From a virus, in the IMG/VR virus record IMGVR_UViG_3300045988_130630: a DNA stretch of 22,319 nucleotides. One strand, written 5' to 3'. The notes beneath the pieces were generated by a model. The model ran no database searches, was not told where the DNA came from, and saw nothing but the letters and a program-made list of their open reading frames with translations. Shown piece after piece: positions 9,002-10,395 of the stretch. The first letter of the stretch is position 1. Each line of letters opens with the position of its first letter. A program made the position numbers and the translations under genes.

Positions 9002-10395
9002 GTGGTTATTCCTCCTTTCCAAGTTGTATTATCTATTTTTGTATATATTGCTTTAATGGGGGCATAAGTATTAGAATCAATTTTCACATTCAATGGCGAT
9101 AATACAGTAATACGAATATATCCATGCATTCCTCCGGGGTTGTTTTTAGTATATCCTGTTGTGGTAGAAGCATTTGTTAAATAATAACTATTGTTTAATA
9201 AACAGCCAAAAGGATAATTAGAAACAGTAGATGAAGTATATACATATCCAGAACCACCACCATTATAAGTTCTATAATCAGCAGAGCTATCACTAACATT
9301 AGTAGAAGCACCGCCACCGTACCAACCGCCGCCACCACCACCGGGACCATAATTATAATTGGTAGATCCACTAGCATCAGCACCTTGACCAAAAGATCCA
9401 TTTGTTCCTGCTTTAGTCTATGTAGCCTTATATTCTTCAACCGCAGAGTTACCCGTCAATCCGCCACCCTATTTAATAGAAGAGTTGCTTTCTCCTGCTC
9501 CTCCTCCGCCACCACCCGCAACAATTACACGAGCATAAAGAGAATCTTGACCTATGCGGATATCGGAAGCTCCTCCACCCCCTCCTCCTGAAGTATAAGC
9601 AGAAGTATACCATCTAATTCTGGAGCTACCTCCTCCATTAAATCCACCACTAACTACTTTTCCTTTTTCACTATCACTTGAATAACTACCCTAACCCCCG
9701 GTATATAAATAAATAGAAGTAGGAGTTGATAAAGAAAGAATTCCTATAGAATATCCTCCTGTTCCACCCCAATAACTATTTTTTGAACTCGCAGGAGTAT
9801 AAGTAGTATTACTTTCCTATTTCTAAATCTAAAAATAAACTTCTTCATTATCCACGGAATTTGAGCCATCTTTAGTATAAGTCATTACAATAGTAGATCC
9901 TGATGATAAAGAATAAGTGCCAGTAGTAGTAAGAGACCTTGATCCAGAAACCGCATTTAAAACTGTATTTCCTCCAACTGTTAAAGTAACTTTATCATAG
10001 CTTGCTTCAGTTTTATAATAATATGAAAATTTATAAGTTCCTCCAGAAGTACAAGTTAATGTAGTTGTGGCGGTACTTGAATCTATTCCTCCATTTGTGG
10101 CTATCCAGTCATTTCCGTCTTGACGAAAATAATAATTTGAATCATTAACAGTAAAATAACTAGTCGCATTATGAGTTCCTATATATATCCATGAAGTTGT
10201 TGTTGATGAAGTTAAAGAACCAGAATAACCAATTCCGCCATAAGCTCCCCAACATTCTAATTGATAATTTCCTGCTGGAAGTTTTACTGGATTTACAGCT
10301 CCCGAATAGCTGCTATTAATAATATCTCCTGGAACAAATTTAGTGGAAGAATAATCTGTTATAGAAGTTCCTGAAGGACTATAAGTATTTGGCAT
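8983..10395 (-). CDS. Glycine-rich tail-fibre-like structural protein (paralog B, 470 codons) with 6 in-frame TAG codons (9829, 9823, 9817, 9691, 9469, 9418)
   Basis: RBS AAGGAGG + ATG at 10395; one frame runs open to TAA at 8983; shares the motifs YxLECWGA, GGGGGGWYGG and GYIRITV with paralog A. Confidence 0.7.

What the first reader, a model, noticed from the sequence alone, without database searches (positions are those of the whole stretch)
9817..9831. Three TAG codons within five codons (F-TAG-I-TAG-K-TAG) inside paralog B
The standard-code ORF 9829..10395 ends at the first TAG of this cluster. The same frame continues for about 280 more codons of glycine-rich sequence homologous to paralog A.

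Three TAGs within 15 nt marks the junction between an inserted roughly 150-aa beta-rich domain and the Gly-rich body. If suppression is only partial early in infection, this could act as a regulatory site that yields a short and a long isoform.
Basis: inference. Interest (0 to 1): 0.5.

Follow-up and report, generated by a model that had tools for sequence, protein, structure and literature searches.

The report
Three amber codons read as glutamine
The three TAG "stops" are ordinary glutamine codons in a tail-fibre-like gene of a gut phage that reads TAG as glutamine in some genes, a known recoding system, and relatives do not keep the triplet as a special site.

Summary
On the minus strand the sequence reads GTT TAT TTT TAG ATT TAG AAA TAG (9831-9817). 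The standard-code ORF 10395..9829 stops at the first TAG, and the same frame runs on to a TAA at 8985-8983, giving 470 codons.

The window comes from a large phage that uses TAG as a sense codon, almost certainly for Gln (code 15), in one block of genes. That block holds 20 in-frame TAGs. The other block holds none, and no gene ends in TAG. Close relatives carry a tRNA(CUA) about 4.5 kb beyond the window's left end.

The gene is a single ALK/LTK-type glycine-rich-domain protein (PF12810). A CBM/CUB-like beta-sandwich of about 150 aa is inserted after profile position 23, so both halves of the domain need read-through. The three TAGs encode V-Y-F-Q-I-Q-K-Q on a long beta-strand that leads out of the insert.

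Among 14 close orthologs, 7 have TAG/TAG/TAG, 4 have TAG/CAA/TAG and 3 have TAG/TAG/CAA. More distant orthologs have one TAG or none at this site, with no indel and with intact downstream homology. Their first TAG falls at codon 45, 48, 160 or 190. Given the Gln sites and about 50% TAG usage, three in a row has a chance of about 0.12.

The dedicated isoform-switch idea is not supported. This is an ordinary instance of known phage stop-codon recoding.

The parts
9817..9831 (-). The cluster itself: TAG ATT TAG AAA TAG, codons 189-193 of paralog B, read as Q-I-Q-K-Q
   Evidence: TAG and CAA swap at the 2nd and 3rd positions in orthologs.
8983..10395 (-). Paralog B. One gene of 470 codons plus TAA. 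It encodes a glycine-rich-domain (PF12810) protein with 6 in-frame TAGs.
   Evidence: Public protein databases hold more than 100 full-length orthologs of about 470 aa, translated with Q at the TAG positions.
9772..10230 (-). Inserted beta-sandwich module with its two-stranded stalk (residues ~56-208). It splits the GRD between Pfam profile positions ~23 and 24.
   Evidence: the Pfam match covers aa 205-432, profile positions 24-243. (AF2 strands 56-72 and 185-208, pLDDT 83-96). (CUB/CBM6/CBM35-like, E about 6e-3).
9691..9693 (-). In-frame TAG, codon 235 of paralog B (GG-Q-GS)
   Evidence: It aligns with CAA or CAT in orthologs.
9469..9471 (-). In-frame TAG, codon 309 of paralog B (IK-Q-GGG)
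   Evidence: It aligns with CAA in two orthologs.
9418..9420 (-). In-frame TAG, codon 326 of paralog B (KAT-Q-TKAG). It is TAG in all six close orthologs compared, and the column is invariant Q in the protein alignment.
10403..10409 (-). Shine-Dalgarno AAGGAGG, 7 nt upstream of the paralog B ATG
   Evidence: No comparable start signal follows the TAG cluster.
7694..9001 (-). Paralog A: a 435-codon GRD protein with 3 in-frame TAGs, including the conserved motif ECWGA-TAG-GG. Its start overlaps the end of paralog B by 19 nt.
   Evidence: The motif is CWGAQGG, with CAA or CAG, in distant homologs.
10412..10966 (-). Upstream 184-codon gene of the same TAG-bearing block (4 in-frame TAGs), function unknown
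394..7615 (-). Phage tRNA array (16 tRNA genes) interspersed with HNH (7426..6941) and GIY-YIG (4118..3339) endonuclease genes that also contain in-frame TAGs. In close relatives the array continues beyond the window to a tRNA with anticodon CTA.

Best explanation
The window belongs to a large (about 160-197 kb) uncultivated phage, distantly Herelleviridae-like. The phage reads TAG as a sense codon, most probably glutamine (genetic code 15), in one block of genes and avoids TAG entirely in the rest. Paralog B is one 470-residue, tail-fibre/adhesin-like protein. Its ALK/LTK-type glycine-rich domain is interrupted by a CBM/CUB-like beta-sandwich carried on a two-stranded stalk. The three TAGs are the three glutamines of the strand V-Y-F-Q-I-Q-K-Q-E that leads out of the insert. 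The every-second-codon spacing is the usual alternation of buried and exposed residues along a beta-strand (inferred). A phage-encoded tRNA with anticodon CUA would decode them. It was seen in close relatives about 4.5 kb past the window edge, and its presence in this genome is inferred. About half of all Gln codons in this block are TAG, so a QxQxQ peptide becomes three TAGs by drift with a probability of about 0.1. Relatives show exactly that drift (TAG<->CAA). Any regulatory effect is the block-wide one already proposed for such phages: no full-length product until suppression is established. It is not a property of this site.
For: (1) TAG is sense across the block. There are 20 in-frame TAGs in five genes between 10966 and 3339 and none in 15 other genes (3308 codons). 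All 20 genes end in TAA or TGA. (2) TAG = Gln. TAG aligns with CAA/CAG in 12 alignment columns of orthologs, more than with any other amino acid. The motif CWGA-TAG-GG is CWGAQGG, with CAA or CAG, in distant homologs. HNH ...CHS-TAG-T is CAA in L012. Gln-like codons make up 2.85% of the TAG block if TAG is counted and 1.52% if not, against 2.24% in the TAG-free block. (3) A suppressor tRNA(CTA) is present in all seven relatives scanned, 4-5 kb downstream of the ATPase gene. It has U1 unpaired and G73, as tRNA-Gln does (the Gln hallmark is from established knowledge of E. coli tRNA-Gln). (4) It is one gene. PF12810 is split by the insert. Paralog B has a strong SD and nothing comparable follows the cluster. 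Orthologs of 463-483 aa exist in more than 100 database clusters. (5) The cluster is not conserved as codons. Counts are 7 TAG/TAG/TAG, 4 TAG/CAA/TAG and 3 TAG/TAG/CAA. More distant orthologs have one TAG or none there, without indels. (6) Structure. The AF2 model of a 93%-identical ortholog with the same junction places residues 185-208 in one long strand (pLDDT 86-90). Foldseek hits ALK/LTK TG domains (E 2e-6) and CUB/CBM6/CBM35 folds for the insert. (7) Statistics: P = 0.12 given the Gln sites. (8) The literature describes the same architecture. Gut phages of 150-210 kb carry TAG-recoded structural and lysis modules scattered through a genome that otherwise uses the standard code (bioRxiv 10.1101/2021.08.26.457843). 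TAG->Gln has been confirmed by metaproteomics in crAss-like phages (PMC9523058).
Against: The suppressor tRNA is not inside this window, so its presence in this genome is inferred from synteny with relatives. In most relatives that tRNA is 90 nt long with a variable arm of about 20 nt, which is unusual for tRNA-Gln and typical of Ser/Leu/Tyr tRNAs. A few TAG columns align with Ser codons, and in one 60%-identical ortholog TAG replaces the conserved Trp of LECWGA. The first TAG of the cluster is TAG in all 15 sequences that have Gln there, so selection on that one codon cannot be excluded. TAG makes up 47% of Gln codons in a block where other G-ending two-fold codons are only about 6-8% of their pairs. 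TAG use as such therefore does look selected. No expression or proteomic data are available for this phage.
Confidence: 0.88

Rival explanations
1. The triple TAG is a selected, extra-stringent translational gate or isoform switch. Before the suppressor tRNA accumulates, ribosomes stop here and release a functional 188-aa N-terminal protein. Later the 470-aa protein is made.
For: The first TAG is invariant in the 15 orthologs that have Gln at that position. TAG use in the block runs against the strong bias away from G-ending codons. Three tandem stops would suppress leaky read-through very effectively (inference).
Against: Half of the close orthologs have only two TAGs here, and more distant ones have one or none. 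The first in-frame TAG of the gene sits at codon 45, 48, 154, 160 or 189/190 depending on the ortholog, so no short product is conserved. The 188-aa fragment ends inside a beta-strand and contains only ~23 of 243 GRD profile positions. Three further TAGs downstream already block the full-length product. Chance expectation given the Gln sites is 0.12.
Confidence: 0.05
2. TAG is a sense codon here but encodes an amino acid other than Gln (Ser, Tyr or Trp). The strand would then be F-S-I-S-K-S or similar.
For: The CTA tRNA of most relatives has a long variable arm and G73, features that SerRS uses (established tRNA identity rules). TAG aligns with Ser codons in some columns: AGC/TCA at g10966 column 94, AGT at parB column 154, TCG at parA column 385. 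It aligns with TAT/TAC once and with Trp in L078.
Against: CAA/CAG is the commonest partner (12 columns), even though TAG<->CAA needs two nucleotide changes. Conserved Gln motifs (CWGAQGG, CHSQT) carry TAG. These proteins are very Ser-rich, so chance Ser partners are expected. L016 has an ordinary 73-nt CTA tRNA at the same locus, with the same U1 mismatch and G73.
Confidence: 0.07
3. The TAGs are true stops. The locus is a pseudogene or two separate genes, or the TAGs are assembly errors.
For: Under the standard code the ORF ends at 9829.
Against: The same in-frame TAGs recur in 14 independent assemblies. The reading frame and protein homology are conserved for 281 codons beyond the cluster, without any start signal. 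The Pfam domain is split across the cluster. TAG never terminates any gene in the window.
Confidence: 0.01

Closest known systems
Stop-codon-recoded gut phages using genetic code 15 (TAG->Gln): Lak, crAss-like, and the Jade/Sapphire/Agate/Garnet/Amethyst clades (Borges et al., bioRxiv 10.1101/2021.08.26.457843; Peters et al., PMC9523058)
   Same: In-frame TAGs are confined to particular (structural/late) gene modules in a genome that is otherwise compatible with the standard code. The phage encodes a tRNA(CUA) within a tRNA array. Genome size is 160-197 kb and the affinities are Firmicutes-phage-like. TAG and CAA/CAG interchange among relatives.
   Different: Nothing essential differs. I could not assign the phage to one of the named clades because no reference sequences were available here. 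The suppressor tRNA of most relatives has an unusually long variable arm. The INPHARED phage records give no near-DNA match for window 7600-11000 and no protein match for paralog B.
ALK/LTK TG (TNF-like + glycine-rich) domain, Pfam PF12810, PDB 7NX4/7MZY/7LRZ
   Same: Both paralogs match the profile far above the gathering threshold (126 bits against 24.5). The AF2 model's best structural matches are ALK/LTK TG domains.
   Different: These are phage proteins, with no kinase and no cytokine ligand. Paralog B carries a beta-sandwich of about 150 aa inserted after profile position ~23. Paralog A instead has a C-terminal extension. Global TM-scores are low (0.22-0.37).
Programmed stop-codon read-through producing two isoforms (for example the Q-beta A1 protein or MuLV gag-pol)
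   Same: An in-frame stop codon separates a shorter product from a longer one.
   Different: Those sites are single, positionally conserved stops with a conserved context and a functional short product. Here the stops are scattered, drift to CAA among relatives, and are decoded by a dedicated suppressor tRNA.
Glycine-rich (polyglycine-II) receptor-binding tips of phage adhesins such as T-even/S16 gp38 (recalled from the literature, not tested here)
   Same: A glycine-rich scaffold carries variable inserted segments in a tail-fibre context. An ortholog's neighbouring gene has a Phage_fiber_rpt domain.
   Different: No sequence or fold comparison with gp38 was made. This resemblance is only a lead.

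Membership tests
Code-15 (TAG->Gln) recoded phage | In-frame TAGs inside conserved ORFs, with homology continuing downstream in the same frame | tested here: met
   There are 20 in-frame TAGs in five genes, and PF12810 spans the TAGs.
Code-15 (TAG->Gln) recoded phage | TAG positions correspond to Gln in homologs | tested here: met
   (CAA/CAG is the commonest partner, 12 columns). (CWGAQGG). (Gln codon fraction restored when TAG is counted). A minority of columns align with Ser, Tyr or Lys.
Code-15 (TAG->Gln) recoded phage | TAG is not used as a terminator | tested here: met
   19 TAA, 1 TGA and 0 TAG among 20 genes.
Code-15 (TAG->Gln) recoded phage | Phage-encoded suppressor tRNA with anticodon CUA | tested here: inconclusive
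   None lies in the window. It is present in all seven close relatives scanned, 4-5 kb beyond the syntenic window edge. Its Gln isotype was not established.
Code-15 (TAG->Gln) recoded phage | Gln actually incorporated at UAG (proteomics) | not testable with these tools
   This needs LC-MS/MS of virions or infected cells.
Pfam PF12810 ALK_LTK_GRD | Profile match above the curated gathering score | tested here: met
   126.5 and 126.4 bits against a cutoff of 24.5 for paralogs B and A.
Pfam PF12810 ALK_LTK_GRD | TG-domain fold | tested here: met
   The top 19 Foldseek PDB hits are ALK/LTK TG domains (E 2e-6 to 5e-4, prob 0.97-1.0), although TM-scores are low.
Programmed read-through / regulated isoform site | Stop codon(s) conserved in position among relatives, with a conserved short product | tested here: not met
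   Sense codons replace the TAGs in relatives, and the first TAG of the gene ranges from codon 45 to codon 190.
Carbohydrate-binding / CUB-like beta-sandwich (the insert) | Significant fold or profile match | tested here: inconclusive
   CUB2, CBM35 and CBM6 at E 6e-3 to 2e-2, TM (target) 0.4-0.6; only sub-threshold Pfam hits (C1q, E 0.055).

The most novel reading that the evidence does not exclude
The invariant first TAG (codon 189), reinforced in half of the lineage by two more TAGs, might be a selected high-stringency stop. It would release a stand-alone 188-aa beta-sandwich protein, for example a soluble receptor-binding or decoy module, before the code switch. The same gene would yield the full adhesin afterwards.
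Probability: 0.04. Interest if true: 0.45.

Novelty: new member of a known kind. Interest (0 to 1): 0.15.

Why it matters
The main value is practical. Standard-code annotation would cut this adhesin-like gene, its neighbours and the homing-endonuclease genes into fragments, and the tandem stops could be mistaken for a regulatory element or a pseudogene. The locus is also a clean small example of two points. First, synonymous TAG<->CAA drift among relatives reveals the meaning of a reassigned codon. Second, TAG is kept at about 47% of Gln codons in a gene block where other G-ending two-fold codons are nearly absent. That pattern fits the published idea that TAG use in late modules is selected. 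It opens no new question.

Tried and rejected
- DNA (megablast, window 7600-11000) and protein (tblastn, paralog B) searches of the INPHARED phage collection gave no match. The phage therefore could not be tied to a named, annotated genome.
- A profile-guided scan of IMG/VR used generic Gly-rich patterns. It returned mostly GRD proteins without the insert, which were useless for the junction but useful for the CWGAQGG motif.
- BLASTP of paralog B against A recovers only the N-terminal 34 residues and short C-terminal pieces, because composition correction masks the Gly-rich body. Homology of the body rests on the shared Pfam profile.
I modelled database ortholog P0002 instead (93% identical, identical junction).
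- Slippage origin of the TTTAGA-TTTAGA repeat was considered and rejected. Orthologs have the same length through the junction, with unrelated codons.
- An intron, intein or separate downstream gene was rejected. There is no indel in TAG-free orthologs and no start signal after the cluster.
- The idea that TAG specifically replaced CAG was rejected. All G-ending two-fold codons are depleted in the TAG block, and the notable point is instead that TAG escapes that depletion.
- PHROG and Pfam searches gave no function for the 184-aa upstream gene or for most TAG-free genes.

Full report
**1. The observation**

Reading the minus strand gives ...GAT AAT GAA GAA GTT TAT TTT TAG ATT TAG AAA TAG GAA AGT AAT ACT.... 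The three TAGs lie at 9831-9829, 9825-9823 and 9819-9817, exactly as reported. The standard-code ORF 9829..10395 (188 aa, ATG) is in the mechanical ORF list.

With TAG treated as sense, the same frame runs from the ATG at 10395 to a TAA at 8985-8983. That is 470 codons containing six TAGs, at codons 189, 191, 193, 235, 309 and 326.

**2. The window as a whole**

All genes and all 16 tRNA genes are on the minus strand. Only TAG, not TGA, lengthens ORFs when read as sense.

In-frame TAGs are confined to one block:
- the 184-codon gene 10966..10412 (4 TAGs);
- paralog B, 10395..8983 (6 TAGs);
- paralog A, 9001..7694 (3 TAGs);
- an HNH endonuclease gene, 7426..6941 (3 TAGs);
- a GIY-YIG endonuclease gene, 4118..3339 (4 TAGs).

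Fifteen other genes have none. These are 22279..11085 and the ATPase gene 1790..651, together 3308 codons. None of the 20 genes ends in TAG (19 TAA, 1 TGA).

The two gene sets have very different codon usage:

| Measure | TAG block | TAG-free block |
|---|---|---|
| GC3 | 0.13 | 0.34 |
| AAG : AAA | 5 : 81 | 141 : 88 |
| GAG : GAA | 4 : 46 | 90 : 171 |
| TTG : TTA | 5 : 61 | 34 : 43 |
| CAG : CAA | 1 : 22 | 44 : 30 |
| TAG (in-frame) | 20 | 0 |

Despite the depletion of G-ending codons, TAG occurs 20 times in the TAG block, which is 47% of Gln-type codons. Counting TAG as Gln brings the Gln fraction of the block to 2.85%, against 2.24% in the other block. Without TAG it is 1.52%.

**3. What TAG means**

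Five IMG/VR contigs of 160-197 kb carry orthologs of paralog B at 86-97% identity. Eight further metagenome contigs were found with a degenerate junction pattern.

At the junction the peptide F-Q-I-Q-K-Q is constant, but the codons vary:

| Codons 189 / 191 / 193 | Sequences (of 14, window included) |
|---|---|
| TAG / TAG / TAG | 7 |
| TAG / CAA / TAG | 4 |
| TAG / TAG / CAA | 3 |

Across five TAG-bearing genes, TAG aligns with CAA or CAG in 12 alignment columns, more than with any other amino acid. This holds even though TAG<->CAA needs two nucleotide changes.

Paralog A carries TAG in the motif ECWGA-x-GG. That motif is CWGAQGG in many homologs and is encoded by CAA or CAG in more distant phage GRD proteins. 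In the HNH gene, CHS-TAG-T is CAA in L012. The public protein database already holds more than 100 full-length orthologs translated with Q at these positions.

All seven close relatives scanned carry a tRNA with anticodon CTA, 4-5 kb beyond the point where the window ends. Its unpaired U1 and its G73 are hallmarks of tRNA-Gln (established knowledge of E. coli tRNA-Gln).

Some caveats remain:
- In most relatives that tRNA is 90 nt long with a variable arm of about 20 nt. L016 has an ordinary 73-nt version at the same locus.
- A few TAG columns align with Ser codons.
- In one 60%-identical ortholog, TAG replaces the Trp of LECWGA.

I put TAG = Gln at about 0.9.

**4. What the gene is**

Both paralogs match Pfam PF12810 (ALK/LTK glycine-rich domain) at E about 2e-36.
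- In paralog A the match is continuous: aa 32-285 against profile positions 2-242.
- In paralog B it covers aa 205-432 against profile positions 24-243.
- The missing first ~23 profile positions correspond to residues ~37-55 (VKLPAGNYQLECWGAYGG), which align with paralog A at 59% identity.

A module of about 150 residues is therefore inserted inside the domain. A functional domain requires translation through the TAGs.

I modelled ortholog P0002 with AlphaFold2. It is 93% identical to the window protein and has the same junction. Mean pLDDT is 83, and above 90 over most of the insert. The model shows an all-beta insert connected by two long strands, residues 56-72 and 185-208. The Q-I-Q-K-Q segment lies inside the second strand, at pLDDT 86-90.

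Foldseek's best PDB matches are ALK/LTK TG domains (E 2e-6). For the insert they are CUB2, CBM35 and CBM6 sandwiches (E about 6e-3).

All three genes of the block have AAGGAGG Shine-Dalgarno sequences. Paralog A overlaps the end of B by 19 nt. No start signal follows the cluster. An ortholog's upstream neighbour has a phage-fibre repeat.

The ATPase gene's nearest annotated relatives are in Herelleviridae (EF24C, Deep Blue; 43% identity). I infer that paralogs A and B are receptor-binding or adhesin proteins of a large Firmicutes-type myovirus.

**5. Is the cluster special?**

If 6 TAGs are scattered at random over 470 codons, 3 within 5 codons is rare: 0.33%, or about 1.1% across the five genes. 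The right null model fixes the protein sequence. With 6 of 11 Gln codons being TAG, the chance that the three neighbouring Gln sites are all TAG is 0.12. With the pooled usage of 20/43 it is 0.10.

The every-second-residue spacing fits a beta-strand that alternates buried residues (V, F, I) with exposed ones (Q, Q, Q). This point is inferred.

More divergent orthologs keep the strand, with no indel, but not the codons:

| Locus | Identity to paralog B | Codons 189-193 | Peptide | TAGs at the site | First in-frame TAG of the gene |
|---|---|---|---|---|---|
| L076 | 82% | TAG ATT GCT AAA CAA | Q I A K Q | 1 | codon 190 |
| L077 | 71% | ATT ATT CAA CGT CAA | I I Q R Q | 0 | codon 45 |
| L078 | 60% | ACT ATT GAG AAA TCA | T I E K S | 0 | codon 48 |
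| L079 | 51% | AGC ATT CAA AAA TAG | S I Q K Q | 1 | codon 160 |

In L005 the first in-frame TAG is at codon 154. No 188-aa product is conserved. Such a fragment would end inside a strand and would contain less than a tenth of the GRD profile.

**6. Mechanism**

- Shown: TAG is sense in this block; TAG and CAA interchange among relatives; paralog B is a single gene with a split domain; relatives carry a tRNA(CUA).
- Inferred: this genome carries the same tRNA; the tRNA inserts Gln; the TAG-bearing block is expressed late, so it is translatable only after the suppressor accumulates.

This is the model published for stop-codon-recoded gut phages. Those phages have 150-210 kb genomes, recoded structural and lysis modules scattered in otherwise standard-code genomes, and suppressor tRNAs (bioRxiv 10.1101/2021.08.26.457843). 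TAG->Gln has been shown by metaproteomics (PMC9523058). tRNA-Sup maturation has been linked to theta ribozymes (PMC10879173).

The high TAG share in a block that otherwise avoids G-ending codons fits selection for TAG use at the level of the block. It does not single out this site.

**7. Verdict**

The read-through and inserted-domain parts of the interpretation are right. The site-specific regulatory or isoform idea is not supported.

The cluster is three glutamine codons on a beta-strand in a code-15 phage. It is a new member of a known kind, of low interest, and is mainly a warning for annotation.

Several side observations are listed separately: a conserved tRNA-like gene with a 6-nt anticodon loop, a twister-like ribozyme with covariation, and the long-armed suppressor tRNA.

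Noticed in passing
window 7545-7615 (-): A tRNA-like gene (Rfam tRNA, 46 bits) has a 6-nt anticodon loop that lacks position 38. The loop is CUUCAA here and in L006, and AUUUAA in L007, L008, L009, L014 and L016. In the Rfam alignment this gives anticodons UCA (complementary to UGA) or UUA (complementary to UAA). ARAGORN calls the same tRNA-like gene just after the paralog-A position in nearly all close relatives scanned (L010 lacks it). Its function is unknown. An ochre or opal reader would be odd in a genome whose genes end in TAA.
   Followed up: partly
window 2242-2292 (-): A compact twister-P1-like ribozyme candidate scores 41 bits (E 3e-8 for the local search), below the Rfam gathering score of 67. 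The core nucleotides are kept and one optional stem is missing. It is 96-100% conserved in 10 relatives, with a compensatory change in P1 (UACC/GGUA <-> UAUC/GAUA). Its 3' strand overlaps the Shine-Dalgarno of the small ORF 2237..2001.
   Followed up: partly
L006:15957-16046, and the same element in L007-L010 and L014; L016:15138-15210: The tRNA(CTA) of relatives is 90 nt long with a variable arm of about 20 nt, a U1-U72 mismatch and G73. L016 has a different, ordinary 73-nt tRNA(CTA) at the same position. This suggests the suppressor gene has been replaced within one lineage. A tRNA-Tyr(GTA) follows about 570 nt downstream.
   Followed up: partly
window 11085-22279 and 651-1790 versus 3339-10966: One genome shows two sharply different codon-usage regimes. 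The TAG-free genes have GC3 0.34 and AAG > AAA. The TAG-bearing genes have GC3 0.13 and AAA >> AAG, and TAG is the only frequent G-ending two-fold codon there.
   Followed up: yes
window 6941-7426 (-) and 3339-4118 (-): HNH and GIY-YIG homing-endonuclease-like genes sit inside the tRNA array. They also use in-frame TAG (3 and 4 codons), so these presumably mobile genes are adapted to the phage's code. Their presence varies among relatives.
   Followed up: partly
L078:3001-4404 (ortholog P0092, 60% identity): The otherwise conserved Trp of the motif LECWGA is TAG (LEC-TAG-GG). Several database orthologs of that clade are translated LECQG at this motif. This may be a W->Q substitution, or a hint that TAG is read differently in that clade.
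   Followed up: no
window 19487-19771 / 19169-19453, and 15343-16947 / 11403-12836 (-): Two pairs of apparent paralogs lie in the TAG-free block. One is a pair of 94-aa proteins in tandem. The other is a pair of Cys-rich (zinc-ribbon-like C-terminus) proteins of ~480-534 aa with no known function.
   Followed up: no
window 7694-8130 (-), C-terminal ~145 aa of paralog A: Paralog A has a C-terminal extension instead of the internal insert of paralog B. A chimeric database protein (P0098, 585 aa) joins a B-like N-terminus with the insert to an A-like C-terminus, which suggests module shuffling between the two paralogs.
   Followed up: no
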